Below are positions 1,080 through 46,416 of a stretch of 64,000 bases of DNA, piece by piece. A program made the position numbers and the translations under genes. The stretch comes from Candidatus Omnitrophota bacterium (GTDB taxonomy: Bacteria > Omnitrophota > Gorgyraeia > Zapsychrales > Zapsychraceae). The notes beneath the pieces are model-generated. The model was given only the letters and a program-made list of their open reading frames with translations, made no database searches and had not been told where the DNA came from. The number at the start of each line of letters is the position of its first letter. Position 1 is the stretch's first letter. The stretch lies in NCBI GenBank assembly GCA_050250375.1, contig JBFWOS010000001.1:958361-1022360 (forward strand), read 5' to 3'.

Positions 1080-1097
1080 CGGACTATCCTTTCCTGA

Positions 1098-2999: not shown

Positions 3000-3002
3000 G
3001 AA

Positions 3003-7701: not shown

Positions 7702-7703
7702 GG

Positions 7704-8984: not shown

Positions 8985-8990
8985 CGTTGT

Positions 8991-32355: not shown

Positions 32356-32474
32356 AATTTAATTCGGTTAATGATTAAGCCCCTATAATACAACAAAATC
32401 CGCAAAACGCAAATAGTTGATGTTGGGGGGATAAAAATGAAGAAAAGGGATAATCCGAATAAATAATAACGTAG

Positions 32475-32564
32475 GGAACAGGCATGCCTGTTCCCTTCTA
32501 TTCTTCGATCCCTGTGCCCTGATCCCTGATCACTAATTAGACCGCTGTCCCGTATCTTAACCGC
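32475..32564. repeat. REP-like mosaic repeat, copy 1 (20-nt perfect palindrome GGAACAGGCATGCCTGTTCC plus conserved 3' module)
   Basis: About 90% identical to 34473..34555. The 3' module GATCACTA..CGCTGTCCCGTATCTTA recurs at 35581..35616. Confidence 0.7.
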
Positions 32565-32722
32565 TTCTCTCTTCCTTCTCCTTTCTTCCCTCTGTTTTCC
32601 AAGATCCCTCATTTGCCATCCCGCGGATCATCTTGTATAATTATTTCAAATATTAATTCCCCCCGCACGATTCCCCTGAAACACAAAGGGGAAAAACCAT
32701 CCGATCACGAAAACCAACCCGG

Positions 32723-33184
32723 TTAGAGCATTACGATTATTCAAAACCCGGATATTATTTTATTACCGTCTGCACCAGAAACCGTAAGGATTGGTTCGGG
32801 GAAATCAGGGACGGGAAAATGATGTTGAATCCGTGCGGGGAAATTGTTTCGCAATGTTGGCATGATTTGCCGGCCCATTATCCCAATTTGCAATTGGATC
32901 AATTCGTTATAATGCCGGACCATATTCACGGGATAATAAATATTAATAAAAATAACGTAGGGAACGGTTTAAAACCGTTCCCTACAAAATTGCACGGATT
33001 ATCCGAATTCGTCCGCGCGTTCAAAACGTTTTCATCTCGCGGAATCAATCATCATTTGAATGGCAACGGCCGTTTCCATTGGCAAAAATCCTTCCACGAC
33101 CACATCATCCGCGACAAACAATCGTTGGAAGAAATCCGGCAATATATCATCAGGAATATTGATGGGGGAAATAAAATAAGATAA
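32723..33184 (+). CDS. IS200/IS605-family HuH Y1 transposase, RAYT-like; no canonical start codon (possible pseudogene or non-ATG start)
   Basis: In-frame translation upstream of the track ORF (32819) reads LEHYDYSKPGYYFITVCTRNRKDWFGEI, the conserved RAYT N-terminus. HuH motif PDHIHGII. Catalytic Tyr in EEIRQYIIRN. The frame is open back to the stop at 32654 with no ATG/GTG/TTG. Confidence 0.55.
   Translation, partial: LEHYDYSKPGYYFITVCTRNRKDWFGEIRDGKMMLNPCGEIVSQCWHDLPAHYPNLQLDQFVIMPDHIHGIININKNNVGNGLKPFPTKLHGLSEFVRAFKTFSSRGINHHLNGNGRFHWQKSFHDHIIRDKQSLEEIRQYIIRNIDGGNKIR
32948..32976. repeat. 29-nt perfect palindrome GTAGGGAACGGTTTAAAACCGTTCCCTAC inside the RAYT coding sequence
   Basis: Shares the AATAACGTAGGGAAC half-site with the REP-like palindromes at 32466 and 34473. 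Confidence 0.6.
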
Positions 33185-33287
33185 AACACCAAAAGAAAAA
33201 TCGGGTTTCATACGGATTGATGAACAGCTTTAAATGAATCAATATTAATCCTGTACGGGCCGTTCGCGAACGGCCCCCTACTTATCT

Positions 33288-33578
33288 TCAAGCGTGTAAC
33301 GCGTCCATAACAATCTTGGGGTTGGCTGCGGCAACCTTTAACAAGGCTAAAGCCGGACCGTCGGGTTTTCTTCGGCCCTGCTCCCAGTTCTGCAATGTGT
33401 CGATGCTGACACCGATCATAAAAGCGAATTCGGACTGGGTGACGTGAAGTTCTTTCCGTATTTTTTTGACCATCACCGGATTAAATTTAAAAATCCGGCC
33501 GGGTTTTAATTTTCCTCTGCGTATTTTGCGGGCCTGGTCAATGCTCGTCAATAATTCTTTAAAATCATGATCTTTCAT
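33288..33578 (-). CDS. XRE-family HTH antitoxin (HigA-like), paralog 2
   Basis: ISIDTLQNWEQGRRKPDGPALALL; roughly 55% identical to 21139..21429. Confidence 0.7.
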   Translation of the reverse strand: MKDHDFKELLTSIDQARKIRRGKLKPGRIFKFNPVMVKKIRKELHVTQSEFAFMIGVSIDTLQNWEQGRRKPDGPALALLKVAAANPKIVMDALHA

Positions 33579-33892
33579 AATGCCCCTCCCTTCACGTATT
33601 CGCCCAAAATCTTCAACTGTTCTATGGTTAAATCTTCTTGTTCTGACTTTTTATACAGGAACAGTAAATAGATCTGCTCATCTTCCAAATACACATAATA
33701 AATGATCCGTATTCCGCCTCTTTTTCCGGCCCCGGGAACGGCCCAACGCAATTTTCTTAATCCCCCGCTTCCCGGAATGACCGGCCCTGCTTGCGGATTG
33801 ACCACCAGCGCCCATTGCAGGTCTTTATACTCATCGTCAGAAAAAACATTGTTTATTCTTTTTGAAAAAACCGGAGTTTCTATAATCTCCAC
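33575..33892 (-). CDS. RelE/ParE-superfamily toxin (HigB/Gp49-like), paralog 2
   Basis: GGLRKLRW...GIRIIYY; 4-nt overlap with the antitoxin gene. Confidence 0.65.
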   Translation of the reverse strand: MEIIETPVFSKRINNVFSDDEYKDLQWALVVNPQAGPVIPGSGGLRKLRWAVPGAGKRGGIRIIYYVYLEDEQIYLLFLYKKSEQEDLTIEQLKILGEYVKGGAL

Positions 33893-34162
33893 CTGATCCC
33901 TCCATTCAAATATACGTCATTGGCGTATAATTGTCAAGACAGGGACTCAATAAAAATACCCCGTCCGATTTCTTAAGAATCGAGCGGGGTAAGGGGATGT
34001 TCTTATTGTATTCAACGCGGAGGTTTTGTCAAGTTTCACGCGGAGTGATGAAATAGTTGGAGGGTATATGTGTAGATGGGTTAATGGAGAGAATAATCGC
34101 TGGGCTGATGCTGCCGGCTCCTTCCGGGATGATGATCTTGGTGTAAGGCAATACGGAATGGT

Positions 34163-34372
34163 TCAATAGATGTAAGCCGCGATTGAAGAATCAGGGGCTT
34201 TGATTAAGTGCGGATGCGGTTCGCCTTTTTTATGGGCCTGGGCCAGCGCGGTTTCCATCCTCGATGAAGACCCGAGGACCGTCTTCTTATCCGCGGACAG
34301 CGTGACCCATTTCCCGGCGTGGGGTTTGATCAATTCGGCGACTGATTCTTCTGGTTTGAATATTTTTGTCAT
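34163..34372 (-). CDS. small hypothetical protein
   Basis: 69-aa ORF. Confidence 0.3.
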   Translation of the reverse strand: MTKIFKPEESVAELIKPHAGKWVTLSADKKTVLGSSSRMETALAQAHKKGEPHPHLIKAPDSSIAAYIY

Positions 34373-34472
34373 GACATTAATCTCGTATGGTGTTGAGTGT
34401 TATTATCCCCCCAAATCAAGAAGAAATTCCTACGGACCCTGACACAACGGGCAAATTAAAATTGTATTGTAC

Positions 34473-34555
34473 GGAACAGGCATGCCTGTTCCCTTCTATT
34501 CTTCGATCCCTGATCCCTGATCACTAGCCAGGGCGCTGTCCCGTATCTTAACCGC
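34473..34555. repeat. REP-like mosaic repeat, copy 2
   Basis: GGAACAGGCATGCCTGTTCC palindrome plus the CCCTGATCACTAGCCAGGGCGCTGTCCCGTATCTTAACCGC module. Confidence 0.7.
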
Positions 34556-35385
34556 TATTTTTTCTTCAGCCTTTTCGCATGAGTTTCCCGGCTGATCACA
34601 TTTTTCCCCGTCTTTTTCTCAATGTCCCGGCGCGCTTTACCGGCCACCGAGCCGCCTTGCCGGGCGACTTTCCGGTTGCCTGCAAATGTTTCCGGTTTTT
34701 TTACCTGGGAAATTTCGGTCGTGGTCGCTTCAGCCAGCATATTGAGGACCAGTTCCAGATTGCTCATATTATCCCGCAGATTTTCTTTCTTCAGGCCTTT
34801 GTATTTTTTGTAATCTTTGGTTTTCATCCCGGTCCAGGCAAACGCGATGTCATCGGTTAAAACCGCAAACTCATCGGGCCCTTTAACGCCCCGCGCGCGC
34901 CATTCATCCGTCAGCAGCTTCCTGATTTCGATGCTTTTAAGGCGCTGGTTGATCCAGTTTTCCGAATACCCTTTTTTCAGATAATACTGCATGGCCCTCT
35001 GGATGGCCAGTTCCGGATCTGCGGCCTCTTCAACCCGTTCATATCCCACCCGCGCCAGCCAGAGTTTGAACGGTTCGGCATTGGGAGAAGGAACGGACTG
35101 AATGACACGAAACATGGTTTCTGTGTCTGCGGCATCCGTTTTGTAATATTTTCCATCGGATGCCTGCATTTTCAGTTGGTTACATTTTGTAACCACCTCA
35201 CTGCCTTCCTTTTTAAGCCTATTTTTTAAAACTTTCCAGTAACTGCGTGGATTCGGGCTTTCCGTTAAAACTCCAATCACATCGACCACCGAGAAAAACC
35301 ATTTTTCATGAGGCTCGTCCCAATAACGGCGGATCTGTTTTCCCTGAAACATATCGGTTTTCATTAAGGCTGTCTCTTTTGACAT
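34555..35385 (-). CDS. DinD-like / Bro-N (KilA-N) domain protein
   Basis: N-terminal Bro-N pattern (QIRRYWDEPHEKWFFSVVDVIGVL). Central and C-terminal similarity to E. coli DinD (KYKGLKKENLRDNMSNLELVLNMLAE). Confidence 0.55.
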   Translation of the reverse strand: MSKETALMKTDMFQGKQIRRYWDEPHEKWFFSVVDVIGVLTESPNPRSYWKVLKNRLKKEGSEVVTKCNQLKMQASDGKYYKTDAADTETMFRVIQSVPSPNAEPFKLWLARVGYERVEEAADPELAIQRAMQYYLKKGYSENWINQRLKSIEIRKLLTDEWRARGVKGPDEFAVLTDDIAFAWTGMKTKDYKKYKGLKKENLRDNMSNLELVLNMLAEATTTEISQVKKPETFAGNRKVARQGGSVAGKARRDIEKKTGKNVISRETHAKRLKKK

Positions 35386-35549
35386 AATCTTTTCCCCTTT
35401 CGTTTTGAAGGGGAGATCAAGGTGTGGGGGGATTGATTTTTTGAAATGTTGTACGAACGGGATTTATTATATCAAAATCGAATGTCCTGTCAATTTTGCG
35501 ATCGGCGGTCTGTGATCTAACGGCATTAGCCCAACGGTCAATATACTTC

Positions 35550-35616
35550 CTTCTTCTCTCTTCCCTCTGTTTTCCAAGATCCCTGATCACTAATTAGGGC
35601 GCTGTCCCGTATCTTA
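35550..35616. repeat. REP-like mosaic repeat, partial copy 3
   Basis: TTCTCTCTTCCCTCTGTTTTCCAAGATCCCTGATCACTAATTAGGGCGCTGTCCCGTATCTTA combines modules found at 32566..32610 and 32521..32560. Confidence 0.6.
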
Positions 35617-35719
35617 TTTCCCTCTGTCCCGTTCTCCGTTCTCTGTTCTCTTCACTAGATAGGGCAGATCAGCGGGGTGGGGTCACAAAGTCTTTAACTT
35701 AATCCACACAATACTAATT

Positions 35720-35878
35720 TCATTTTGATTTCTTCATAAGATCTCGTATTTCTTCTAATAATTCAACTCCATAATTAATTTTAAAATACCAACATACTAT
35801 TTCTCTACACAATAAAAAAATAATAAACACTAAAATTATGGCAACAATGCAAATTACAATGTCGAAAGATGTTAACAT
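35720..35878 (-). CDS. small hydrophobic ORF (52 aa): MLTSFDIVICIVAIILVFIIFLLCREIVCWYFKINYGVELLEEIRDLMKKSK
   Basis: Not in the track. AAGGAGGGG 3 nt upstream of the ATG. Single TM helix. Confidence 0.3.
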   Translation of the reverse strand: MLTSFDIVICIVAIILVFIIFLLCREIVCWYFKINYGVELLEEIRDLMKKSK

Positions 35879-35895
35879 ATTCCCCTCCTTATAAT

Positions 35896-35959
35896 AATAA
35901 ATGGGGACGGAGGCGAATTAATGAACAAATGCTAAGAATAGAGTCCGTCCCAATTTATT
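35896..35959. repeat. gene-terminal hairpin repeat, copy 1 (about 16-bp imperfect stem AATAAATGGGGACGGA / TCCGTCCCAATTTATT)
   Basis: Lies 12 nt downstream of the 35971..36495 stop. A second copy at 36549..36615 follows the stop of the 36665..37588 gene. Confidence 0.55.
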
Positions 35960-35970
35960 CTAGTTCCTGC

Positions 35971-36495
35971 TTAGAAAGGAAGACCGGCGTTAATAACACC
36001 TGTTAGGTGCCCCTCGCCATCGCTACCATGTGTTTCATGATCAATAGAGGCAATCAATCCCACGACCGCATCACTATCCTGTGCCCATTCAATTCTTACA
36101 TAACCTGAATGATAATCCGACGTGTTGTATTCTATCACCCTAAACCGCGCTGTATCATTTGCGGCAAGAGTGAACGTTACAGAATCTCCGTCTGCCGATC
36201 TTGAATCATCATAATTTGTCAGGGTTGCACCTGTTGCACGCAAGGGGCCGTCCAAGGGATCATCATCTGTGTCTGTTAGAATACTTCCATCTTCATCATA
36301 GATTGTCAGCGTCACATTGATAGAAGAACTGGTAATATTTGTGACAAAAATAATAGGTGCGGATCTTTCCGTTCCGCTGGCCCAATGCCAATAAAGAGGC
36401 GTTCCTACCGCGCTACCGGAAGCCGACGCAGCAGATGCCATACTTGGTGACAGGGTTAATAATCCTACCAGCACTAACAAAACTAATTTCTTCAT
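35971..36495 (-). CDS. secreted protein, paralog family 2 (C-terminal ...GLPF)
   Basis: Signal peptide. Shares ITIYDEDGSILTDTDDD, FTLAAN and IEWAQDSDAVVGL motifs with 48562..49083. Confidence 0.6.
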   Translation of the reverse strand: MKKLVLLVLVGLLTLSPSMASAASASGSAVGTPLYWHWASGTERSAPIIFVTNITSSSINVTLTIYDEDGSILTDTDDDPLDGPLRATGATLTNYDDSRSADGDSVTFTLAANDTARFRVIEYNTSDYHSGYVRIEWAQDSDAVVGLIASIDHETHGSDGEGHLTGVINAGLPF

Positions 36496-36548
36496 CTTCT
36501 TCTCCTTGTATAATTTGTTATTAATTAATTTAATCCACTTATGCGCAC

Positions 36549-36615
36549 AATAAATAGGGACGGAGGCGAATTATTGAACAAACGCTAAAAACAGGGTTCG
36601 CCCCAAATTAAATTC
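36549..36615. repeat. gene-terminal hairpin repeat, copy 2
   Basis: AATAAATAGGGACGGAGGCGAATTATTGAACAAACGCTAA... is a direct repeat of the 35896 element. Confidence 0.5.
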
Positions 36616-36664
36616 ATGAATTTCCGCTAATTAATTGTTGTGTCCCGAGATTAATGTAGTTCTT

Positions 36665-37588
36665 TCAATTTTTACCTACAAAGATTTGAGCTGTGTCTAC
36701 AACACCCTTTTCATTAAAATAGAATTCCAATGTTCCGTATGAAATTTTATATTTTGCCCGCGGGGTTCCATCTAATGTTTCAGGATCATATTTGTCAGGC
36801 TTTCCGAATATCCTGATTATATCTTCGACTTTTTCACCTCGTTTTATCGGAAATACGTTCGGTTGGTAGGTTTTATAAGTGACCTCTCTGTTGGTTAGAG
36901 AATTAAAAAAAGTATAATCCTGCAGAAAAACAGAGATAATCGATACTTTTTGTGTCTCTTTATTTATTCCCAAAAAACTTAATCCTTTTGAATAATATGA
37001 TAAACCTGATAATTCAGACTCAGCATCAGGCTTACCATAATGTTTAATTACATCATGAACAAATAAATTTTTCATTCCTATACCACTTATAGTTCCCTTT
37101 CTTAAATCGATTGTCCCCTCTGATAACTCAGGCTCAGGTAAACTTTGTAAACTACCTGTTTTTGGAGCTTTTTCTATAAATGATGGATCGTCCAACGGCG
37201 TTAAAATAGTTTTCATGTTCTGTCCTAAAAGAGCTCGATCGTTTATCCAACCCATACCCTGCATGGGGGAAGTCCTCACATAATAATAGGTGTCACCATT
37301 CCATCGTTTAACTTTCTCAATTGTTATTTCTGTACCTACTGCTAACTCTATTTCTGTTATAAGAAGCTCTCTCAAAGATCCAAACGGGTTCTCATACATT
37401 GGTGTTTGCCGAGTCAGTTTAAATGTGTCTGTTGGCTGCAGATTCTCATCCGCTTGCACAAGCCGAGCCAATCCAAGAATAAGTACACAGTACATTATGA
37501 AAATGGATCTATTTCGCACAAAATCCTTCTTTTTAAAAGTGCGTTTCCCGGATTTAGAATTCCGGGTCCCCGCGTTGGAACAGGTCAA
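36665..37588 (-). CDS. hypothetical secreted protein
   Basis: 307-aa ORF. An internal Met followed by a hydrophobic signal-like segment (MYCVLILGLARLVQA) suggests a later true start. Confidence 0.45.
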   Translation of the reverse strand: MTCSNAGTRNSKSGKRTFKKKDFVRNRSIFIMYCVLILGLARLVQADENLQPTDTFKLTRQTPMYENPFGSLRELLITEIELAVGTEITIEKVKRWNGDTYYYVRTSPMQGMGWINDRALLGQNMKTILTPLDDPSFIEKAPKTGSLQSLPEPELSEGTIDLRKGTISGIGMKNLFVHDVIKHYGKPDAESELSGLSYYSKGLSFLGINKETQKVSIISVFLQDYTFFNSLTNREVTYKTYQPNVFPIKRGEKVEDIIRIFGKPDKYDPETLDGTPRAKYKISYGTLEFYFNEKGVVDTAQIFVGKN

Positions 37589-37623
37589 GCCTCTTCAATT
37601 TCCCTCTGTCACGTTCTCTTGAA

Positions 37624-39825
37624 CTAAAGATTTTCCTGCAACCTTTCAAATTCATATGGAATTAGTCTCGCTTTTTCCGCTAATTTTTCTTTTTTAATTG
37701 CACTTATCACATCGTCTTCTCGTACTTCTGTTGAAAGGTAGCCTGAAAGTTTATCAATAGCGGACTTTGGTACACCATACTCAACCAATATCGCCAAATT
37801 TTGTCTTACAAAATCATTTTCCAATTGTGATGCATAATATGAATAGTTACCAGGGTTCAGACCATTTTTATTACACACATACTTTTGAAGCTCATGTACA
37901 ACATTCAACCATTTTGGAACCTTATAATGAAACCAGTGTCTTAAAATTTGGAAGGAATCCATCACCGCTTCATCATAAATTTCCTGGGGTTTCTTCTCGG
38001 AGTTCTTACTCAACTTGAGATTATATAAATAAGTGTTTTCCACCAACTGAGAAATATTTTGAAACATTGCGTAGTCAAAAGTAACTTTTATTAATTTGGA
38101 TAATGTCATAGGTCTTGTAGTCTCACCTCTTTTTAGAAAATTCTCCCATGCAAGGGTTAACACATAGGTAAGTTGATAATAGTTAGGAAAACCTGACCAT
38201 GAAATTAGATCGTATGAAGTATTAATATCTTTCTTCAAAATCTCAAGAGTTTTACGCTGTCCACTTACAAGAAGACCGTTTTCCCGAATAATTGCCCGTT
38301 CTTCATCAGGGATTTGTAACAATTCGCTGTATTGAGTGCTCTCCTTGTCTCTAACATCCTTTTCCTCGAGATGTATCAGCACCTCATCGTTGATTGGATT
38401 TTGCTCAAAAAATGGAATGTCGATAATAACATCGTTTCTCTCTGGTGGTTGATTGAAGTTGAATATCCTACCAACGTAATGAATCATTAACCTGCCTGAT
38501 CTTCCTTTGATGTTACTATAATCAAAGAAGTCTATTTCGTTAAATCCCTTTTTTGAATCGAAATATACGATGTTTTTTGCACTTGTATTCACTCCTTCAA
38601 TAATAGTTGATGTACAAAACAAATACTTTAGATCTCCCCGATTAAAGTAACTTATAATCGAAGAGGTGATGTGCTTTTGCAAAGCGCCGTCGTGAATCCC
38701 TATCCTATAATCTAAGCAATCCAAAAAACTCCAGTGTCTGCTGACGTTTTCTAGAATCCACTCATAAATGGTCAAATTTCTTCTTTTTACTGGTACACCC
38801 TTATCTTTCAAATATTTCACAAATTTGTAAGAAATCTCGCGAACTCTCTTCGGAGAGGAACAGTAGATAATCGTTTGTTCCTCCTCTAACTCAAGCAACA
38901 AATCAAACAGCACAGTTTCCTTAAATTCTTTGAAGTTTTTTGACTTTGAAAATTCTGTCTCGTGCTTCTGATACACATTTATCGAATGTATGTCCACGAG
39001 TGAATAATCAGTCTTATAAAATTCAGCATTATACTTTTCTGCAAATCCTGCAGAGATACCATCAATATTTGGCCCTAATAGGTAGAATTTGCTTTTGAAT
39101 TTATTGATTAGCCGATTGAAAGCATTGTTGAGCGTGTCGCATCGTTCGTCGTCTCTTTTTGCGCTGAGCTTGTAAAATTCATCAATAATAAAAAAATCAA
39201 TATTAAAAAAATTTGTATATTCCATTACTCTTTCTGCGGTCAGAAGAAACAGATTACCCTTATCAACCGCAGGCGTCTGAGAAGTACGAATAATGATCTT
39301 AAAGTTATCACTATATTTTTTAAGCTTTTTACGAGTCTCATCAAGCAGTGCAAGCGTAGGCTGTATAATAACAATGTTTCGATACTTCTTTGACGCAACA
39401 ATTTCTTCAATAAGTATACTTTTTCCAAAACTAGTTGGTGCACTTACTATGAGATTCTTATCTGACTTTAAAATGTCATTTATGTGCTTCTGTTCATCAT
39501 GGAAATACTTTCCCTTGAGATAGTCAGAACTATGAAACTCCTTTCGTAGCTTTCCCGCAGCGCTTTGCAATTGCATGCGTTCTTTCTCTTTTTCTAAATA
39601 AGGGTAAAAACCTGCTGATTCAATGAGGTCTATCCAAGGTTTTTGACTGGCCGCGTCCAATTTATGCCAATTATCCAAGAGGTTAATGATAATCTGTCTT
39701 CCTTTCTGTGAGTGTGTCTGATTTCTCAATAACCTTGAGCATTTCTGAACATACCTAAAACTATCATAAGGGGATATCTGTTCGTTTCCTACTATCTCAC
39801 TGATTATTTCATCGATTTCATCCAT
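37624..39825 (-). CDS. SF2 DExx-box helicase, candidate Hachiman HamB
   Basis: Walker A SAPTSFGKS and motif II FFIIDEFYKL. 733 aa. Sits immediately downstream of, and 1 nt from, a DUF1837-like gene. Confidence 0.55.
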   Translation of the reverse strand: MDEIDEIISEIVGNEQISPYDSFRYVQKCSRLLRNQTHSQKGRQIIINLLDNWHKLDAASQKPWIDLIESAGFYPYLEKEKERMQLQSAAGKLRKEFHSSDYLKGKYFHDEQKHINDILKSDKNLIVSAPTSFGKSILIEEIVASKKYRNIVIIQPTLALLDETRKKLKKYSDNFKIIIRTSQTPAVDKGNLFLLTAERVMEYTNFFNIDFFIIDEFYKLSAKRDDERCDTLNNAFNRLINKFKSKFYLLGPNIDGISAGFAEKYNAEFYKTDYSLVDIHSINVYQKHETEFSKSKNFKEFKETVLFDLLLELEEEQTIIYCSSPKRVREISYKFVKYLKDKGVPVKRRNLTIYEWILENVSRHWSFLDCLDYRIGIHDGALQKHITSSIISYFNRGDLKYLFCTSTIIEGVNTSAKNIVYFDSKKGFNEIDFFDYSNIKGRSGRLMIHYVGRIFNFNQPPERNDVIIDIPFFEQNPINDEVLIHLEEKDVRDKESTQYSELLQIPDEERAIIRENGLLVSGQRKTLEILKKDINTSYDLISWSGFPNYYQLTYVLTLAWENFLKRGETTRPMTLSKLIKVTFDYAMFQNISQLVENTYLYNLKLSKNSEKKPQEIYDEAVMDSFQILRHWFHYKVPKWLNVVHELQKYVCNKNGLNPGNYSYYASQLENDFVRQNLAILVEYGVPKSAIDKLSGYLSTEVREDDVISAIKKEKLAEKARLIPYEFERLQENL

Positions 39826-39826
39826 C

Positions 39827-40765
39827 TTAAATTTTTTGTATATAACTCAATTTTTCGTGTAATTTCTTCAACAAAACGTTCTTATTCGGCACAGGGAATA
39901 AGAGCAGTATAATTCGCAAATCCGTCTTTATCGGACTACTTCTGTGGTCATCAAAATACTTCTTTAAAGCACGCATTTCATTTTCATATTCGCATACAAA
40001 TTCAGCCGTCTTTTCAGAATTATGCTTGTTAAACACTTCGCTAGTATATGTGCACAACAAGGGGATAGTCACAGATTCAAGAATATTCTCTAAGGTATTG
40101 TCCACATCAATCAGATCAAACCACCTGTCTTTGTCTGGAATCACACTCGAATCAGCATAAAAATTACGTTTCTTGGAGATAAGCGCAAATTCTCTAAGCA
40201 AATAATCCCTCTCAAAGTGTTTCATTATATCCTGTGTAAGCTCCTTGACTCCACTGCTACCACTTGCGTGCAATTTTGACTCGCCAAGCCATAAAGATTT
40301 ACTTGGTGCGTGAATATGCACAGCATCAAAACCATGAACAGTGATTCCATCGGCATCTTTGAAAAAAACTTTTGATAACAGACAAATGGTATTGTGGAAA
40401 TCTCTAAGAAGAAGATGCAGAATCAATTCACCAAACTCTCCCCGCCGGCCATATTTTTTTTCAAAGAAATCATCCTCATCTCGATACTTCTTATGTTCAT
40501 GATTAGTAGAATCGTACGGATCAATTTTGTATATCGCCTTAGCTGCTTCCTTTAACTTTTCTCTATTGTATGTATTGGTTAAAATGCCGTCATGATAACC
40601 AAAAGCAAAATCAACTAAAGCATTCAGAAGCTTACCAATCAGCGGGTCCCATCTATACTCTCCAAGATCGAATCCCACAAAATAAGTTTTCAAGTCTGCC
40701 TCGGAGATGTGCTGAGTAATAACTGTTTCTGATCCGAATGGGGTCTTTATTTCTGATTTTGGCAT
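39827..40765 (-). CDS. candidate Hachiman HamA (DUF1837-like, PD-(D/E)xK)
   Basis: 312 aa. Putative nuclease motif GFDAVHIH...GESKLH (D...ExK). Upstream and adjacent to the helicase in the Hachiman gene order. Confidence 0.4.
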   Translation of the reverse strand: MPKSEIKTPFGSETVITQHISEADLKTYFVGFDLGEYRWDPLIGKLLNALVDFAFGYHDGILTNTYNREKLKEAAKAIYKIDPYDSTNHEHKKYRDEDDFFEKKYGRRGEFGELILHLLLRDFHNTICLLSKVFFKDADGITVHGFDAVHIHAPSKSLWLGESKLHASGSSGVKELTQDIMKHFERDYLLREFALISKKRNFYADSSVIPDKDRWFDLIDVDNTLENILESVTIPLLCTYTSEVFNKHNSEKTAEFVCEYENEMRALKKYFDDHRSSPIKTDLRIILLLFPVPNKNVLLKKLHEKLSYIQKI

Positions 40766-40880
40766 TTCAGTATACTTCGTTCCAATTTTAGAAAACTTTA
40801 TAAATCAACAGAAAAATACCGGGCCAACTCTGTATAACTGCATATGGTTTGTCACTTGCCGTACTGCGAAAACCTGATCC

Positions 40881-41621
40881 TTACGATTTTCTTATAAGAT
40901 TAGCTACAATTTCCTTTTTAACTTCTCCAAAACGCCCTTTACTTGTTTGTTCACAAGCTGCTCCTCTAATACAAATTACATCCACTCCTGTTCTCCAAAG
41001 GTCGGGTAATTCCTCTTTAGCTATTGACCCAGCAATCCAAGCTTCTTTCTTTATTTCATGACAAGAAGAAACAAAAGCAGCCACTTGTTTGAGATTCCAA
41101 TAATCTAATAATCCTTTTCCAAGTAATTTATTAAATGTATCAATTAAGAGACCGTCTGCTTGAATTTTCTTTATCAATTTCGGACCCTCTTTAAGTGGAT
41201 TAAAGAATCTTTGCATGTCAGGATCAACAAATACAGCAGGAATGACTTTTTTATGTGGATACAGCATCTTTACACTACGAACAAGAGAGTCACCAAGATA
41301 AGCTGCCGCTTCAAATGGAAGCTCGGCTAAGCCACACTTAATAATATCTGCTCCTGCCGTTGCGACCCCAAGTGCAGCCTGACACGAAGAAGCACGGACG
41401 TGTTGAACTTCACCGATATTTGTTGAAACAATGGCCCTCTTGAATCCAGCTTTATCTAATTGATTTCGTACAGCAAGAATATTTAACGGATATGGCGTTC
41501 CAAGAGCAGAAGCAGGGTATTCAACATCAGCTATATGCGCTCCACCCCTGACAGCCTCCAAGGCTTCTTTTGGTCCACGTACGCTAATGAGCAATTTTTG
41601 TTTTATAAAGGCTTTGCGCAT
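40881..41621 (-). CDS. MfnB-family protein ((5-formylfuran-3-yl)methyl phosphate synthase-like, DUF556 TIM barrel)
   Basis: Aligns along its full length to archaeal MfnB: LLISVRGPKEALEAVRGGAHIADVEYP, IIKCGL, GLLIDTFNK...AWIAGSIAKEELPDLWRTGVDVICIRGAACE. Confidence 0.6.
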   Translation of the reverse strand: MRKAFIKQKLLISVRGPKEALEAVRGGAHIADVEYPASALGTPYPLNILAVRNQLDKAGFKRAIVSTNIGEVQHVRASSCQAALGVATAGADIIKCGLAELPFEAAAYLGDSLVRSVKMLYPHKKVIPAVFVDPDMQRFFNPLKEGPKLIKKIQADGLLIDTFNKLLGKGLLDYWNLKQVAAFVSSCHEIKKEAWIAGSIAKEELPDLWRTGVDVICIRGAACEQTSKGRFGEVKKEIVANLIRKS

Positions 41622-42091
41622 ACTCTCTCCCTCAAATAAAAATACTGTTTTACTTCAGGCATGAACCCTGCCACATGTCTTGCGATTTGTTCTTTCCACT
41701 CAGAACTTTTTCCATTGTATGTACGTATTCTTAATCCAGATCCAGTCACCATTTCAGAAAGTTTAAATCTTGATTTAGTGTTATACAGAGCGAGAATTGG
41801 CTTTCCCTTCATAATCGCATAAGTTAACTCTTGCCCCACACCCCAAGAGACAACTGAAATTTCTGCAACAAGGAAATCGGCTTTATCAACTTCAGCTAAA
41901 TCTCGCATATATATTTCATTCGCTTTTATCAATGAATCTTCCTTTATAGGATGAAAAATGTTAACTTTATGGTTCTTTTTTAAACACTTTTCAATGTGTT
42001 CATAAAATTTGAGATATTCATCTACTTCTTCTTGATCAAATTGTCTTAATAAAGTTATAGCTTGAGATAAATAACAATTTAATTTCTTCAT
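41603..42091 (-). CDS. nucleoside 2-deoxyribosyltransferase-like (NDT/SLOG fold) protein
   Basis: IFHPIKED...DLAEVDKADFLVAEISVVSWGVGQELTYAIMKGKPILAL resembles PF05014-type proteins. Overlaps the downstream MfnB-like gene by 19 nt. Confidence 0.45.
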   Translation of the reverse strand: MKKLNCYLSQAITLLRQFDQEEVDEYLKFYEHIEKCLKKNHKVNIFHPIKEDSLIKANEIYMRDLAEVDKADFLVAEISVVSWGVGQELTYAIMKGKPILALYNTKSRFKLSEMVTGSGLRIRTYNGKSSEWKEQIARHVAGFMPEVKQYFYLRERVCAKPL

Positions 42092-42103
42092 AAACTTGTC
42101 CTT

Positions 42104-43468
42104 TTAAATGAGTTCTTTAAATTTCTTTTCCAATAAATCATCCACTTGTCCATTGTCGTTAGTGATTTTCGCGTTTAAAATCTTTTCTATATCAGCATCT
42201 GTAAGCACAATAACAAATTTACTGTCTTTTGCTAAAACTAGCTGTCTTTGTTTAACCTTCTGCACATCCACAATTGATCTACAGACGATTATGCCAAATT
42301 GTCCTCTCCTATTATTAAGCCTATTATGTATTTGTGAAAATTCTTCGTTTGCAATATCTTTGTTATAATTCTTACATTCAATGAAAATATTCGGACAAAC
42401 AATCTTATAACCCTCATCTAACTGTTTAAAAAATCCATTTTTTCTGTAATTCTTGAAAGTTATGTCAACACGTTGTATTTTTTCATCCCAACAATCTTCT
42501 TTCTCAGGACTGCTAAGAGTTTCATAAAAAACATCCTTTAGAATGGTAAATATTAAATTATGATACCGAGAGGCTTGTTTTTTAGCTTTTCCAGGCAAAA
42601 TATTTTTTAATTCTTTTAAATACTGATTCGTAATATCGATAGGCTTAGGTTTGGTAGTTCTTGTTGGAACTTTTGTTTCATATTCTTCTCTTGTTGCAGA
42701 TTTTCTCGTTATTTTTTGTAATACTTCTTTATGTTTTAATTGCTTATGTATATCTAAACTGTTCTCAACAAGTATTGGGCCAGACGGCCTAAACACATAC
42801 GCCTGGTTATTTCCTGACTTTGAAAATTTAAATGTATTGTCAAACGTAAATCCATATGCATTTAACATATCATGGATATCTTTCCTCGAGAAATCTCTAT
42901 AAAACATTTTATAATTTCTGCCTTTCCCCGTCGCAATCCCATCAGACACTCTTACTGAATTTCTATCGCTAGAATAAGCTCCGTGTTGTGTATACCAAAG
43001 CAGTCTCCCATCATCTTTAATTTTTTCTCTAAATATTTTTAAAACTGCATGCCTTTCTACAGGAACAGGCATAATATTTAATACATTAATACAAAGTATA
43101 ACGTCAAATTCTTTCTGTGCTGTTATAAAATCTTTAGGGAAGATAAGCGATTTGAAATTTCCAAATTTATTTGCTTTTTCTAAATATTCGGCAGCTTGAG
43201 TTGATCTTTTAAATAAATCTTCATAATCACAGGCATAAACTGTGTACCCATCTTTTAGTAAATGTAATGTGTTTCTCAATTTAGCCGCACCAAAATCTAA
43301 TATCGTTGTATTTTTAGAATTAAGGCCGGCTAAAAGTGAGCCAAAGGCATACTCTAATTGCCTCCCCGGTTCGCTAAAATTAGGAGCTGAGCCAGTAACA
43401 TCAATAAGAATAGGTATACTCTGACCTTTTTCAATAGCATTAAACTTATATATTGGTGTTTCCCACAT
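42104..43468 (-). CDS. class I SAM-dependent methyltransferase fused to a C-terminal PD-(D/E)xK-like domain
   Basis: Motif I ILDFGAAKLRNT. Acidic residue at the end of beta2 (VYACDY). Motif IV-like DVILCINVLN. C-terminal RVDITF...IFIECKNY gives a D...ExK pattern. Confidence 0.45.
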   Translation of the reverse strand: MWETPIYKFNAIEKGQSIPILIDVTGSAPNFSEPGRQLEYAFGSLLAGLNSKNTTILDFGAAKLRNTLHLLKDGYTVYACDYEDLFKRSTQAAEYLEKANKFGNFKSLIFPKDFITAQKEFDVILCINVLNIMPVPVERHAVLKIFREKIKDDGRLLWYTQHGAYSSDRNSVRVSDGIATGKGRNYKMFYRDFSRKDIHDMLNAYGFTFDNTFKFSKSGNNQAYVFRPSGPILVENSLDIHKQLKHKEVLQKITRKSATREEYETKVPTRTTKPKPIDITNQYLKELKNILPGKAKKQASRYHNLIFTILKDVFYETLSSPEKEDCWDEKIQRVDITFKNYRKNGFFKQLDEGYKIVCPNIFIECKNYNKDIANEEFSQIHNRLNNRRGQFGIIVCRSIVDVQKVKQRQLVLAKDSKFVIVLTDADIEKILNAKITNDNGQVDDLLEKKFKELI

Positions 43469-43551
43469 TTTATCTGCCTTTCTTAGACATTCTTACACCA
43501 AATTCCTAAATGAAAGAATCTGCGTTACGTTCTTTTACATACCAAGAACTA

Positions 43552-45201
43552 CTAACTTAGTACGTTCTTCCTCACTTTTTTAGATTTCTTTTCTTTAAGC
43601 TTAACGACTCTATCTATATCGATTTTTTGTAAATAAACTTTAAATCTATACAAACTAAGACGTAGATATATATTTTTCAATGAAACTTTACTAAAGAATG
43701 GAATTTTCAGCTTGTCGGGAACACTACTAATAATTCCATAAATAATTTTATATTCTTCCGCATTTATCTGTTTATTAGAATCTTTAATTTGGAACTTCCT
43801 CGGAAGTCGTTTATTCATTTCTAAACGATACGCTGGATCCGCCAAGAATAATTCGGCTGAAACAATGCCCTGATTAAAGAGATGACTCAAAATATTAGAA
43901 CCCCCATAATGTTTAATATGAATAAAATCTTTTTTACTTGAATATAAATCGCATATCTCAACAGGGGAACTGTATAAATAGACATTTTTTTTATCCAATA
44001 GTGCGTATCCGGATTTCTCTGCAGCATATTCATTATAGTGGTCCTCTACCACCGGCTCTTCTGGCTCTTCAAATCTTACAGGACACCCTGGTAATTTAAT
44101 AGGACTCTTAGCTCTTAATAACTTTTCATATGTTTTTTCAATTTGAGCTGAAAAACTTTTATCGATTTTGTACCATTTCCCATTCGTTAAAGTGTAAACA
44201 CTATTTTTCTCAGATATTTCTGCATATAAACAGTTATAAATTTTCCATAACCTTGTTGGTGAGTTTTCAAAATAACAATATATATGCAGTTTTCTAAGTA
44301 ATTCGATGGTAAATGTTCCCTCGTGTTTTTCATATTCCTTAACGAAATCGGTTAAAGATAAATCTCTATACTCTCCTCCCATTTGACTCGTTTTGTATTT
44401 AAAATAATCAAAATCTGTCCAATCAATAATTTCAGGCACAGCTATCCATAATTTATCAAAATTCTTATCATTAATTTTCCGAACCAAACTGTTATTGAAT
44501 CGCTCAATATCTGTAGGGTTTCGGACCTCTTCAATTTGGTCGATCCAAGAAAAATATTTTTTATAGGATCTCGAATTACTATATTCCAAACACCTCAATA
44601 AAAACTTTTTAATATTTACAAATGTGACGGGTACAGAAACATGTAAAGAATCTCTACCAGAAATTGTTTTGCCAAGAAATAAATCATTCGAAAGACCCGT
44701 GACGGCTTGAATTAAATCTTGTTCAATATTTATACCAAACTCTGATGTTGTTGCACTTTTCCCCACTTGCTCCTTTGATTGTTTTACCAAACCACCAAAA
44801 TTAATCTTATCAATGCTTCTAATATTCTCTTGATCTACAGCATTTAGAACAACCTTCAATCCGAAACGTTCTTCATACACTCCTTTTTGCAAAAGATGAA
44901 AACCCGTTCCAAATGTTAGCGCAAAATAACGCAATGATGTTTTTCTTAACTTGACTGGAACAATTAGCGCAGCACAAGATGAGGACGAAAAAATTTTCGT
45001 TTGATCTGTTATGGAATCACCAAAAAATTTTTCTATCCAGCTTGGTCGTCTCGATGCCGATGGTTTAATGTAAAATATGGAATCACTGATATTTTTCTTA
45101 ATGAGACCTGAGTCATTATCAATGATTTCATCTAAAAAAATATTATCTTTAATAAGATATATCGATAATTTATTTTTCTTTTCTCTTGGTATCTTTTTCA
45201 T
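43552..45201 (-). CDS. hypothetical 549-aa protein, first gene of the four-gene cassette
   Basis: No confident family. Lys-rich C-terminal tail. Low-GC codon usage matches the 37.6-45.2 kb block. Confidence 0.45.
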   Translation of the reverse strand: MKKIPREKKNKLSIYLIKDNIFLDEIIDNDSGLIKKNISDSIFYIKPSASRRPSWIEKFFGDSITDQTKIFSSSSCAALIVPVKLRKTSLRYFALTFGTGFHLLQKGVYEERFGLKVVLNAVDQENIRSIDKINFGGLVKQSKEQVGKSATTSEFGINIEQDLIQAVTGLSNDLFLGKTISGRDSLHVSVPVTFVNIKKFLLRCLEYSNSRSYKKYFSWIDQIEEVRNPTDIERFNNSLVRKINDKNFDKLWIAVPEIIDWTDFDYFKYKTSQMGGEYRDLSLTDFVKEYEKHEGTFTIELLRKLHIYCYFENSPTRLWKIYNCLYAEISEKNSVYTLTNGKWYKIDKSFSAQIEKTYEKLLRAKSPIKLPGCPVRFEEPEEPVVEDHYNEYAAEKSGYALLDKKNVYLYSSPVEICDLYSSKKDFIHIKHYGGSNILSHLFNQGIVSAELFLADPAYRLEMNKRLPRKFQIKDSNKQINAEEYKIIYGIISSVPDKLKIPFFSKVSLKNIYLRLSLYRFKVYLQKIDIDRVVKLKEKKSKKVRKNVLS

Positions 45202-45324
45202 ATGAAATTTTTATAAGATTTTAAAATTACTAGGGCGCATAGTTAATTTCTCCGTCATTACATCCTCCTCCGCCTTTTTCTAACAACAAATTATGCAAAT
45301 ATAAAAGTTACCAGAAACCAGTAA

Positions 45325-46416
45325 TCAAACCCTTTCAGCATAACCTTTTTCTAAAAGCAAATTATTCAAATAAACATCCGTCCCCGCATCCGGACTTTCC
45401 CCCTGCGGGATGAAGATGTCCGCGAGGTAGCGGTCGTATTTGTCGGACTTGTTGGTGCGGATGATGACGCGGTCGGCTTCTTTGATCAGAGACTGCACGA
45501 AGGTCTTGGCGGCCGCGCCTTCTTTGGTGTCCATTTCCGGGCAGTCGATCCCGCGCAGGCGCAGGGTCTGCCGGGTCCACATGTTAAAACCCTGGTCCAC
45601 GCGCACTTTGAGCGTGTCGCCGTCGATGACCCGTTCCACGTACGCCTGATAGGTAAAGAGGTCTTTGGGCGTTCGGGCCCCTGTGTAAAATTTATAATCG
45701 CCATCGGCGCCGCGCGACTCGATGATCTGCCCCCCGCTAAATTTAGAAAGCAGTTTGTCCTCCACTTTATGGAAATTGCTGAAACCCACATCGATCATCA
45801 GTTCAGGTTCGGCAGCGGAGGCCACCGCCGGGCGTTTGGTGATCTGATAAGTGTACAGGGTTCCGCGGGCCGGGATGAGAGGCGTTTGTACAGGCGGCAA
45901 TTCCTTTTTAACGTCCACCTTCTGCGGTTTGTCTTTACCCGCCCTGATCTGCGACAAAAGCTCATCCGTCGACCATTGATGCCGGGCCGCGCGTTCTTCC
46001 AACCGGCCGCGCTCATCGGGATCAGAGACAGCCATCAGTTCACGGTAATGGGTCCAGGTGAATTGCGACCGCGCGGTCGCAATTGGCGCGCGGCTGTAAG
46101 TCCTGGAAAATTGGACGCAGCGTTCCAGCAGACGGGAATTAAGCCCCAAATCATCGGCCAGCCGTTTGATCACCTGCGCCCCGTAATCGGCGCGGCTTTT
46201 ACTCTGTTTAATATGTGTCTGGATAATATTCCCGGTTTCCCAATACGTGCGCACGCGTTCGGCCTCGATGCGGGCCTGGCCTTCCAGGAGAGTCTTCTTC
46301 ACCTGTTTGAGGAGCGGCTGATAAACAGACGCCGGGATGGTGATCGTTTTGGGCGGTTTGCTTGTCATGAGCGTATCATCGCTGTCGGTTTCATGATTTA
46401 TCTGGATTATAAGCAT
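45325..46416 (-). CDS. YhcG-N (DUF1016 N-terminal) domain fused to a staphylococcal-nuclease (SNase)-like domain
   Basis: N-terminal RVRTYWETGNIIQTHIKQSKSRADYGAQVIKRLADDL and FSRTY..FTWTHYRELM are YhcG-N-like. C-terminal VIDGDTLKVRV...LRLRGIDCPE...YDRYLADIF is an SNase signature. Likely starts at the internal MTSKPP Met (around 46368). Confidence 0.5.
   Translation of the reverse strand: MLIIQINHETDSDDTLMTSKPPKTITIPASVYQPLLKQVKKTLLEGQARIEAERVRTYWETGNIIQTHIKQSKSRADYGAQVIKRLADDLGLNSRLLERCVQFSRTYSRAPIATARSQFTWTHYRELMAVSDPDERGRLEERAARHQWSTDELLSQIRAGKDKPQKVDVKKELPPVQTPLIPARGTLYTYQITKRPAVASAAEPELMIDVGFSNFHKVEDKLLSKFSGGQIIESRGADGDYKFYTGARTPKDLFTYQAYVERVIDGDTLKVRVDQGFNMWTRQTLRLRGIDCPEMDTKEGAAAKTFVQSLIKEADRVIIRTNKSDKYDRYLADIFIPQGESPDAGTDVYLNNLLLEKGYAERV

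What the first reader, a model, noticed from the sequence alone, without database searches (positions are those of the whole stretch)
37624..40765. Candidate Hachiman anti-phage system (HamA-like DUF1837 protein plus SF2 helicase)
A 312-aa protein with a D...ExK nuclease-like motif is followed 1 nt later by a 733-aa DExx-box helicase (Walker A PTSFGKS, motif II DEFY). This two-gene architecture and gene order match type I Hachiman (HamA then HamB). The pair lies in the AT-rich accessory block.
Basis: partly seen in the sequence, partly recalled or inferred. Interest (0 to 1): 0.55.

Follow-up and report, generated by a model that had tools for sequence, protein, structure and literature searches.

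The report
Ordinary two-gene Hachiman anti-phage system

Summary
The observation and the interpretation both hold. On the minus strand, a 312-aa ORF (39827-40765) is followed after 1 nt by a 733-aa ORF (37624-39825). The first matches Pfam PF08878/HamA (137.5 bits, cutoff 25) and PADLOC HamA1 end to end (E 8.5e-105). The second matches PADLOC HamB1 end to end (E 1.2e-230) and aligns over about 700 residues with the solved E. coli K-12 HamB/AbpB (8ZUE_B, E 1.5e-78). HamA keeps the nuclease motif D147...E162-S-K164. HamB keeps Walker A (APTSFGKS), motif II (DEFY), motif V and motif VI. An AlphaFold model of HamA gives only two notable matches among solved structures (E 1.7e-6 and 1.2e-3), both HamA chains of Hachiman complexes. 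In 80 of 80 genomes with a HamA relative, a HamB relative lies directly downstream on the same strand. No HamC was found and HamA has no Cap4 fusion, so this is type I (type I-A by HamA architecture). HamB, however, belongs to the compact AbpB-like lineage. The pair lies in a 34% GC defence island. The proteins are already deposited for a Candidatus Omnitrophota MAG, without a Hachiman label. This is a new member of a known kind, and interest is low. The more unusual item is next door: a recurrent gene pair, DNPH1-like plus MfnB-like, also found beside CBASS operons.

The parts
39827..40765 (-). hamA: 312-aa DUF1837/HamA PD-(D/E)xK nuclease, the effector
   Evidence: Pfam PF08878 at 137.5 bits against a cutoff of 25. 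PADLOC HamA1 PDLC00150, E 8.5e-105, full length. The AF2 model (pTM 0.79) gives only two notable matches among solved structures, 8zue_A (E 1.7e-6) and 8vxy_A (E 1.2e-3), both HamA chains. 100% identical to a deposited 'DUF1837 domain-containing protein' of a Ca. Omnitrophota MAG.
40274..40327 (-). HamA catalytic core D147 ... E162-S163-K164 (DAVHIHAPSKSLWLGESK)
   Evidence: D147, E162 and K164 are invariant in a 28-sequence alignment, and HGFD and GE[ST]K are present in 80 of 80 loci. In the model, D147 precedes a beta strand and E162/K164 lie within the next strand. hhalign places E162 and K164 opposite F and E of the catalytically dead AbpA DUF1837 domain. Coordinates were verified.
40427..40438 (-). 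HamA helix motif E110-F-G-E113 (GEFGELILHLLLR), an invariant acidic pair preceding the core
   Evidence: E110 and E113 are invariant. GE.GE is present in 78 of 80 loci. A catalytic role is inferred from the usual PD-(D/E)xK architecture only.
37624..39825 (-). hamB: 733-aa SF2 Ski2-like helicase, the sensor and activator
   Evidence: PADLOC HamB1 PDLC00180, E 1.2e-230, residues 8-731 on model positions 5-704 of 709. Pfam DEAD, Helicase_C and ResIII. PDB 8zue_B (E. coli K-12 HamB/AbpB), E 1.5e-78 over residues 15-699. BLASTP against K-12 AbpB gives 28% identity over 700 aa, E 1e-84.
39418..39441 (-). HamB motif I / Walker A, APTSFGKS (G134-K135-S136)
   Evidence: It aligns with AbpB SAPTSMGKS, where the G127A/K128A/S129A mutation abolished defence (PMC11914072). 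PTSFGKS is present in 76 loci, and one more carries the variant PTSYGKT.
39172..39183 (-). HamB motif II, DEFY (D215-E216)
   Evidence: It is identical in AbpB (VIDEFYKL) and present in 77 of 80 loci.
38491..38505 (-). HamB motif VI, GRSGR (arginine fingers); motif V TSTIIEGVN lies at residues 405-413
   Evidence: GR[SA]GR is present in 77 of 80 loci. The motif aligns with AbpB KGRAGR.
39826..39826 (-). 1-nt spacer between the hamA stop (TAA) and the hamB start (ATG)
   Evidence: Read directly from the sequence. It implies co-transcription and probable translational coupling. Relatives show the same tight spacing, and two of the closest called genes overlap.
40766..40880 (-). 115-nt intergenic region upstream of hamA; a possible promoter region, not demonstrated
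   Evidence: No sigma-70-like site reached the scan threshold here, and no conservation was seen with the upstream regions of relatives. It is listed only as the place where an own promoter would have to lie.

Best explanation
This is an intact type I Hachiman anti-phage system. HamA (312 aa) is a stand-alone DUF1837 PD-(D/E)xK nuclease with its active site preserved. HamB (733 aa) is a Ski2-like SF2 helicase. The two genes are co-transcribed and probably translationally coupled.

The mechanism below is transferred from characterised systems and was not tested here. The two proteins form a HamAB heterodimer, with the N-terminal helical domain of HamB holding HamA and keeping it inactive. HamB binds and surveys DNA. 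When phage replication or DNA damage produces aberrant DNA, HamB ATP binding and hydrolysis activates HamA. HamA then degrades phage and host DNA indiscriminately, which aborts the infection.

Shown here: family membership of both proteins, intact catalytic motifs, strict HamA-HamB synteny with co-variation across genomes, and location in a low-GC defence island.

Inferred: complex formation, the trigger, DNA degradation and phage protection. The trigger is the least certain step. HamB is of the compact AbpB-like lineage, whose ATPase is reported to be stimulated by dsDNA, and not of the ECOR31 lineage, which is reported to be triggered by 3' ssDNA ends.
For: PADLOC gives HamA1 at E 8.5e-105 and HamB1 at E 1.2e-230, both full length. 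Pfam PF08878 scores 137.5 bits against a cutoff of 25. HamB aligns end to end with solved 8ZUE_B at E 1.5e-78, and BLASTP against K-12 AbpB gives E 1e-84. The HamA AF2 model gives only two notable matches among solved structures, 8zue_A (E 1.7e-6) and 8vxy_A (E 1.2e-3), both HamA chains. D147, E162 and K164 are invariant, and E162 and K164 sit where the dead AbpA domain has F and E. Walker A, DEFY, motif V and motif VI are intact and conserved. In 80 of 80 genome loci with a HamA relative, a HamB relative lies immediately downstream on the same strand, and the HamA and HamB identities correlate at r = 0.82. The closest relative (73% identity) keeps the pair in a different neighbourhood, beside a serine recombinase and Dcm/Vsr. 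A B. cereus megaplasmid copy lies beside Gabija. The mechanism comes from PMC12278908 and PMC11914072.
Against: Nothing found contradicts membership. The limits are as follows. No experiment exists for this locus, and I could not establish that any member of this exact subfamily (HamA of about 312 aa with HamB of about 730 aa) has been tested. HamA has no sequence-level match to any solved HamA chain, even with a profile. The equivalence of E162/K164 with the mutagenised E138/K140 (ECOR31) or E150/K152 (DEC14B) therefore rests on the fold match, the motif position and the AbpA profile alignment (hhalign probability 90.7%). The model has a mean pLDDT of only 73. No promoter or terminator could be identified. 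The host is an uncultured MAG, so expression is unknown.
Confidence: 0.93

Rival explanations
1. It is an AbpAB-type (type I-B) Hachiman variant, in which a fused Cap4-like nuclease is the effector and the DUF1837 domain is only a scaffold.
For: HamB is closest to E. coli K-12 AbpB, with the same length class (733 against 729 aa), an end-to-end alignment, and identical DEFY and GKS contexts.
Against: HamA is 312 aa, and the HamA1 model covers residues 9-312, so there is no room for an N-terminal Cap4 domain. AbpA is 538 aa, and only its residues 345-534 align with our HamA. Our HamA keeps E162 and K164 where AbpA has F and E. Type I-B is defined by the N-terminal fusion plus loss of the DUF1837 active site (PMC11914072).
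Confidence: 0.02
2. The helicase is a housekeeping DNA-repair helicase (Hel308, RecQ or DinG type), and its adjacency to the DUF1837 gene is incidental.
For: There are weak similarities to Hel308, Pol theta helicase, Ski2 and Mtr4. This is expected because HamB belongs to the Ski2-like clade.
Against: The NCBIfam Hel308 equivalogs score 28-34 bits against cutoffs of 887-1200, and there is no RecQ or DinG hit. The HamB1 model scores 766 bits. Synteny with HamA is 80 of 80. The pair lies in a 34% GC accessory block in a genome region of about 50% GC.
Confidence: 0.01
3. HamAB is one part of a larger composite system. The six co-oriented, tightly spaced genes at 37624-45201 (DUF6119, methyltransferase-nuclease fusion, DNPH1-like, MfnB-like, HamA, HamB) would act together.
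For: All six genes are on the minus strand with gaps of 83, 12, -19, 115 and 1 nt. In L061, homologs of the methyltransferase-nuclease and MfnB-like genes again lie just upstream of a HamAB pair that is only about 40% identical.
Against: 79 of 80 HamAB loci lack all four neighbours. The neighbours occur without Hachiman, in L088 and beside CBASS in L172-L175. The closest HamAB relative has unrelated neighbours. Co-location of independent systems is the rule in defence islands.
Confidence: 0.05
4. The locus is an inactive relic, transferred horizontally and no longer functional or expressed.
For: The GC content is foreign, and no promoter was recognised.
Against: Both ORFs are full length relative to their family models, and every catalytic motif is intact. 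An identical HamA occurs on a contig from a second sample (L002).
Confidence: 0.04

Closest known systems
Type I Hachiman, type I-A in the sense of Cui et al. 2025 (tested examples: E. coli ECOR31 HamAB, PDB 8VX9/8VXY; E. coli DEC14B HamAB)
   Same: Two-gene operon in the order hamA then hamB. HamA consists of the DUF1837 domain alone, with a conserved D...ExK active site. HamB is a Ski2-like SF2 helicase with intact ATPase motifs. The HamA fold matches 8vxy_A.
   Different: HamB is much shorter (733 aa against a 1174-aa chain for 8vx9_B). It matches ECOR31 HamB only weakly, over the RecA2 region (E 1.2e-4). Its Walker A lies at residues 134-136, against 272-274 in DEC14B HamB. Its motif II is DEFY, against DEGH. 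Because it aligns end to end with AbpB, it probably lacks the WH* and OB modules described for ECOR31 HamB; this is inferred from PMC11914072.
AbpAB / type I-B Hachiman of E. coli K-12 (YfjL/YfjK; PDB 8ZUE)
   Same: HamB is homologous over its whole length (28% identity, E 1e-84), including the N-terminal helical domain that binds the DUF1837 domain. The HamA DUF1837 fold is the best structural match (8zue_A, E 1.7e-6).
   Different: HamA has no N-terminal Cap4 nuclease domain. The DUF1837 active site is intact here (E162, K164), whereas AbpA has F and E at those positions. The effector here should therefore be DUF1837 itself.
Bacillus cereus CMCC P0021 megaplasmid pRML04 pair (WP_063549813 and WP_063549811), annotated only as a DUF1837 protein and a DEAD/DEAH helicase
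   Same: Same subfamily and sizes (312 aa and 731 aa). HamA is 51% identical and HamB 58% identical. The gene order is the same, and the pair lies in a defence island beside Gabija.
   Different: Different phylum and replicon. I could not determine whether this is the same subfamily as the B. cereus B4087 Hachiman tested by Doron et al. 2018.
Type II Hachiman (HamC-HamA-HamB)
   Same: The HamA2 and HamB2 models also match, more weakly (E 1.8e-53 and 3.9e-192).
   Different: No HamC (DUF3223) model hit among the 13 neighbouring proteins scanned. The best models are HamA1 and HamB1.

Membership tests
Hachiman type I | HamA protein with a DUF1837 (PF08878) domain | tested here: met
   PF08878 scores 137.5 bits against a cutoff of 25, covering residues 43-292. 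PADLOC HamA1 gives E 8.5e-105 at full length.
Hachiman type I | HamB SF2 (Ski2-like) helicase matching HamB profiles, with intact ATPase motifs | tested here: met
   PADLOC HamB1 gives E 1.2e-230 at full length. DEAD and Helicase_C domains are present. Walker A, DEFY, motif V and motif VI are present.
Hachiman type I | hamA and hamB adjacent and co-oriented, conserved as a pair | tested here: met
   The gap is 1 nt. 80 of 80 related loci keep hamB directly downstream. Identities co-vary at r = 0.82.
Hachiman type I | No HamC (DUF3223) gene, which would make it type II | tested here: met
   No HamC model hit among the 13 window proteins scanned, spanning 33288-46416. ORFs under 60 aa were not scanned.
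Hachiman type I-A (Cui et al. 2025) | HamA consists of DUF1837 only, with a conserved PD-(D/E)xK active site | tested here: met
   The protein is 312 aa and fully covered by the HamA1 model. D147, E162 and K164 are invariant and sit on the expected beta strands of the model. Equivalence with the mutagenised residues is inferred from the fold match and the AbpA alignment, not from a direct sequence alignment.
Hachiman (any type) | HamA and HamB form a complex with ATP-dependent DNase activity | not testable with these tools
   This needs co-purification and nuclease assays. No multimer prediction tool was available.
Hachiman (any type) | Protection against phage infection | not testable with these tools
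   This needs cloning and plaque assays. The host is uncultured.
AbpAB / Hachiman type I-B | N-terminal Cap4-like nuclease fused to HamA | tested here: not met
   HamA is 312 aa with no extra N-terminal domain. Only AbpA residues 345-534 align with it.
AbpAB / Hachiman type I-B | DUF1837 domain lacking the catalytic (D/E)xK residues | tested here: not met
   E162 and K164 are present where AbpA has F and E.
AbpAB / Hachiman type I-B | Compact AbpB-type HamB helicase | tested here: met
   End-to-end alignment with AbpB/8ZUE_B, 733 against 729 aa, E 1e-84.
Housekeeping Hel308, RecQ or DinG helicases | Score above the curated equivalog cutoff | tested here: not met
   Hel308 models score 28-34 bits against cutoffs of 887-1200. 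There are no RecQ or DinG hits.

The most novel reading that the evidence does not exclude
The most novel reading still open is that HamAB is functionally coupled to the four co-oriented genes immediately upstream (40881-45201). These encode a DNPH1-like dNMP N-hydrolase, an MfnB-like protein with a conserved Lys-to-Glu change at the Schiff-base position, a methyltransferase-nuclease fusion and a DUF6119 protein. Together they would form a composite island operon in which a nucleotide-processing module feeds or modulates Hachiman. The recurrence of two of these genes directly upstream of a distant HamAB pair in L061 keeps this open. A milder novel reading is that this subfamily is the unfused, catalytically active counterpart of the AbpAB lineage, and may use a trigger different from ECOR31 Hachiman.
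Probability: 0.06. Interest if true: 0.55.

Novelty: new member of a known kind. Interest (0 to 1): 0.15.

Why it matters
For Hachiman itself it matters little. The system is present in more than 5% of prokaryotic genomes (PMC12278908), its mechanism and structures are published, and standard tools (PADLOC, DefenseFinder) would call this locus automatically.

Three modest points remain:
- It documents a complete Hachiman system in Candidatus Omnitrophota. No held paper mentions the phylum and the system together.
- It is a clean example of a widespread, cross-domain subfamily (Bacteroidota, Bacillota, Proteobacteria, Bathyarchaeia, Altiarchaeales and others). This subfamily pairs an AbpB-like compact helicase with an active, unfused HamA. 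That speaks to a question raised in the Cell paper, namely why AbpA carries a dead DUF1837 domain. Such systems look like the state before the Cap4 fusion.
- The surrounding 34% GC island holds a recurrent, undescribed gene pair that deserves its own look.

Tried and rejected
- Direct sequence matches of HamA to solved structures found nothing useful. I tried the single sequence, a 28-sequence profile, and the catalytic core alone at E up to 10 (the last gave only spurious kinetochore hits). Residue mapping to ECOR31 E138/K140 could therefore not be done by sequence.
- The promoter and terminator scan gave no more sites than shuffled sequence and none in the hamA upstream gap. Aligning that gap with the upstream regions of two relatives showed no conserved element.
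- I looked for island boundaries. The only tRNA is about 18 kb away, and there is no integrase in the block. A perfect 19-nt inverted pair at 35525 and 48374 that brackets the block turned out to be a dispersed motif with five copies in the window, so it does not mark element ends.
- I tried to establish whether the founding B. cereus B4087 Hachiman belongs to this subfamily. The Doron et al. 2018 manuscript is not held, and later papers do not say.
- I tested whether the upstream genes belong to Hachiman. This was rejected on 79 of 80 loci.
- I tested whether the methyltransferase-nuclease gene has a fixed partner. It does not: the downstream gene is absent in 20 of 43 loci and variable in the rest.
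Full report
OBSERVATION. Two ORFs lie on the minus strand of the window: 39827..40765 (312 aa) and 37624..39825 (733 aa). The stop codon of the first and the ATG of the second are separated by one base (ATT TAA G ATG). HamB has APTSFGKS at residues 129-136 and DEFY at 215-218. The upstream protein has D147 and E162-S-K164. The pair has 35.7% GC. It sits in a block (36665-45201) of 34.5% GC, inside a window that is otherwise about 50% GC.

IDENTITY. The 312-aa protein matches Pfam PF08878 (HamA/DUF1837) at 137.5 bits against a gathering score of 25. It also matches 21 PADLOC HamA models. The best is HamA1 PDLC00150, at E 8.5e-105, covering model positions 3-310 of 310. The 733-aa protein matches PADLOC HamB1 PDLC00180 at E 1.2e-230 (positions 5-704 of 709) and carries the DEAD, Helicase_C and ResIII domains. 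Against solved structures, HamB aligns over residues 15-699 with chain B of 8ZUE at E 1.5e-78. 8ZUE is the E. coli K-12 Hachiman/AbpAB complex. BLASTP against K-12 AbpB (YfjK) gives 28% identity over 700 residues at E 1e-84. Hel308-type NCBIfam equivalogs score only 28-34 bits against cutoffs of 887-1200, and nothing resembling RecQ or DinG appears.

HamA ACTIVE SITE. HamA has no sequence-level match in the PDB, even with a profile. An AlphaFold2 model built on a 28-sequence alignment (mean pLDDT 73, pTM 0.79) gives only two notable Foldseek matches among solved structures. They are 8zue_A (E 1.7e-6) and 8vxy_A (E 1.2e-3), the HamA chains of the two published Hachiman complexes. The next match has E 0.08.

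In the alignment, D147, E162 and K164 are invariant, as are E110 and E113. HGFD and GE[ST]K are present in 80 of 80 related loci. In the model, the order is a helix carrying E110/E113, then a strand preceded by D147, then a strand containing E162-x-K164, then a helix. This is the canonical PD-(D/E)xK arrangement.

A profile alignment to AbpA covers only AbpA residues 345-534, its DUF1837 domain. It places our LWLGESKL opposite AbpA LWIGFSEL. The window protein therefore keeps the Glu and Lys that the catalytically dead AbpA domain has lost. That loss is reported in PMC12278908 and PMC11914072. The published mutants E138A/K140A (ECOR31) and E150A/K152A (DEC14B) abolish defence. The equivalence of our E162/K164 with those residues is inferred from fold and motif, not from a direct alignment.

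HamB MOTIFS. The following motifs are all present, and each is conserved in 76-77 of the 80 related loci (a few copies are cut by contig ends):
- Walker A (G134-K135-S136)
- motif Ia (PTLAL)
- motif II (DEFY)
- motif V (TSTIIEGVN)
- motif VI (GRSGR)

The AbpB triple mutant G127A/K128A/S129A, at the aligned position, abolishes defence (PMC11914072).

CONSERVATION OF THE PAIR. A scan of one genome per species returned 80 loci that encode a HamA relative (39-55% identity). They span Bacteroidota, Bacillota, Proteobacteria, Campylobacterota, Nitrospirota, Planctomycetota, Patescibacteria, Bathyarchaeia, Altiarchaeales and Promethearchaeota. In all 80, tblastn finds a HamB relative starting 0-181 nt downstream on the same strand. 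HamA and HamB identities to the window proteins correlate at r = 0.82. This is as expected for co-evolving partners, and is also reported in PMC13064477.

The closest relative (HamA 73% identical) keeps the pair but has different neighbours: a serine recombinase, Dcm and Vsr. A B. cereus megaplasmid copy (HamA 51%, HamB 58%) lies beside Gabija. One Klebsiella phage and 17 plasmids carry HamB relatives. The two genes therefore move as a self-contained module among defence islands and mobile elements.

CLASSIFICATION. No HamC model matched any of the 13 neighbouring proteins scanned, and the best models are HamA1 and HamB1. The system is therefore type I. In the HamA-based scheme of Cui et al., type I-A means HamA consists of DUF1837 only, with an active site; this type makes up 86% of systems. 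The window system is type I-A.

Its HamB, however, is not like the type I-A helicases that have been studied. ECOR31 HamB is an 1174-aa chain and matches ours only weakly (E 1.2e-4). DEC14B HamB has its Walker A at residues 272-274. Our HamB is instead collinear with AbpB, the type I-B helicase. Cui et al. report that AbpB lacks the WH* and OB modules and has a dsDNA-stimulated ATPase. The locus thus combines an AbpB-like sensor with an unfused, active HamA effector. This is not rare: all 80 loci share the layout, and PADLOC already has dedicated full-length models for it. I could not find evidence that a member of this subfamily has been tested biochemically, and the B. cereus B4087 question stayed open.

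MECHANISM. The mechanism is transferred from the characterised systems and was not tested here. HamA and HamB form a heterodimer through the N-terminal helical domain of HamB. HamA is inactive alone. HamB binds DNA. Aberrant DNA produced during infection or damage triggers ATP-dependent activation; the reported triggers are 3' ssDNA ends for ECOR31, and dsDNA, phage SSB or mitomycin C damage for AbpAB. HamA then degrades phage and host DNA, which aborts the infection (PMC12278908, PMC11914072, PMC10732053). For this locus, the effector step (the DUF1837 nuclease) is well supported by the intact motif. The nature of the trigger is the least certain step, because the helicase lineage differs from ECOR31.

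CONTEXT. The window comes from a Candidatus Omnitrophota MAG (GCA_050181705.1, contig JBFXCX010000003.1). The proteins are deposited there as 'DUF1837 domain-containing protein' and 'DEAD/DEAH box helicase'. The low-GC block is a defence island. It holds the following genes:
- Upstream of hamA: an MfnB-like gene, a DNPH1/Rcl-like gene (Nuc_deoxyrib_tr), a SAM-methyltransferase fused to a PD-(D/E)xK domain (PDC-M36A C-terminal match) and a DUF6119/TIGR04141 gene.
- Further out: a DUF1016_N-SNase protein (PDC-S02), a Bro-N protein (PDC-S13, E 1.6e-130), a RelE/HTH toxin-antitoxin pair and an IS200-like Y1 transposase.

I found no integrase or tRNA boundary.

The four upstream genes are not part of Hachiman. 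79 of 80 HamAB loci lack them, and they occur elsewhere without Hachiman. One distant locus (L061) again has the methyltransferase-nuclease and MfnB-like genes directly upstream of HamAB. A small probability of functional coupling is therefore kept.

VERDICT. The locus is a textbook, apparently functional type I Hachiman system: a new member of a known kind, of low interest in itself. The adjacent DNPH1-like and MfnB-like pair, described under the items noticed in passing, is the more unusual feature of this region.

Noticed in passing
window 40881-42091 (-): 162-aa ORF 41603..42091 and 246-aa ORF 40881..41621, overlapping by 19 nt: A DNPH1/Rcl-like dNMP N-hydrolase homolog (PDB 2khz_A, E 2.3e-9; catalytic 'VAE' context kept) is translationally coupled to an MfnB-like protein (4rc1_A, E 4.3e-27). 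The same overlapping pair recurs in unrelated defence contexts: after the methyltransferase-nuclease gene in L088 and L109, and directly after CBASS operons (SAVED, CD-NTase and a gene of about 240 aa) in L172-L175, with or without DUF6119. The MfnB-like protein has Glu ('DVEYP') where MfnB has the Schiff-base Lys27 ('DVKNP'). This change is conserved in all 11 homologs found in these contexts, and the protein scores 121 bits against the 341-bit MfnB equivalog cutoff. The 162-aa protein is at least 90% identical across a 30-member cluster, while its partners diverge to 56-68%. I found no paper describing this pair. It may be an undescribed nucleotide-targeting defence module; that is speculation.
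   Followed up: partly
window 42104-43468 (-): This 454-aa protein has an N-terminal class I SAM-methyltransferase domain and a C-terminal PD-(D/E)xK domain (invariant D335...E364-C-K366). The C-terminal part matches PADLOC candidate PDC-M36A and a methyl-directed REase model. The family is rare: 135 proteins at E<=1e-10 among 5.8 billion. Some members carry a fused TIR domain. The downstream partner gene is variable or absent (none in 20 of 43 loci, MfnB-like in 3, a gene of about 430 aa in several).
   Followed up: partly
window 43552-45201 (-): This is a 549-aa DUF6119 / TIGR04141 'sporadically distributed protein' (E 2.7e-133). It is linked to the DNPH1-like and MfnB-like pair here, in L088 (in a different position) and in L172/L173 beside CBASS. 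It has no PADLOC model and no functional literature.
   Followed up: partly
window 45325-46416 (-) and 34555-35385 (-): Two further PADLOC defence candidates flank the block. One is a DUF1016_N plus staphylococcal-nuclease fusion (PDC-S02, E 2.8e-24). The other is a Bro-N domain protein that matches PDC-S13 almost full length (E 1.6e-130).
   Followed up: no
window 32461-35640, and 37598-37618: There is a family of intergenic repeats. A perfect 20-nt hairpin GGAACAGGCATGCCTGTTCC occurs at 32475 and 34473, bracketing an IS200-like Y1 transposase ORF (32699..33184 +, PF01797 at 35.9 bits) and a RelE/HTH toxin-antitoxin pair (33288..33892). A 39-nt repeat GATCCCTGATCACTAATTAG..CGCTGTCCCGTATCTTA occurs three times (32521, 34512, 35578). 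A 21-nt piece, ATTTCCCTCTGTC[C/A]CGTTCTC, occurs at 35616 and again just 3' of the hamB stop at 37598. The arrangement resembles REP elements with a RAYT-type transposase, but I did not test that.
   Followed up: partly
window 35525, 48374, 50173, 51783, 54173: The 19-mer ATTWGCCCAACRGTCAATA occurs five times on both strands, against none expected in shuffles. The two perfect copies bracket the defence block in inverted orientation, but the flanks do not align. It is therefore a dispersed intergenic motif, possibly a regulator site, and not a pair of element ends.
   Followed up: partly
window 35872-35957 and 36525-36610: Two copies of an 86-nt direct repeat (77% identity) flank the 174-aa signal-peptide-like ORF 35971..36495 (-). 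That ORF has no family match.
   Followed up: no
L061 (JAEUSK010000205.1) 11-10150: This is a second defence island with a related layout: an Mrr_cat protein, the methyltransferase-nuclease, the MfnB-like gene, an unknown 324-aa ORF, HamA, HamB, and type I R-M HsdM and HsdS.
   Followed up: partly
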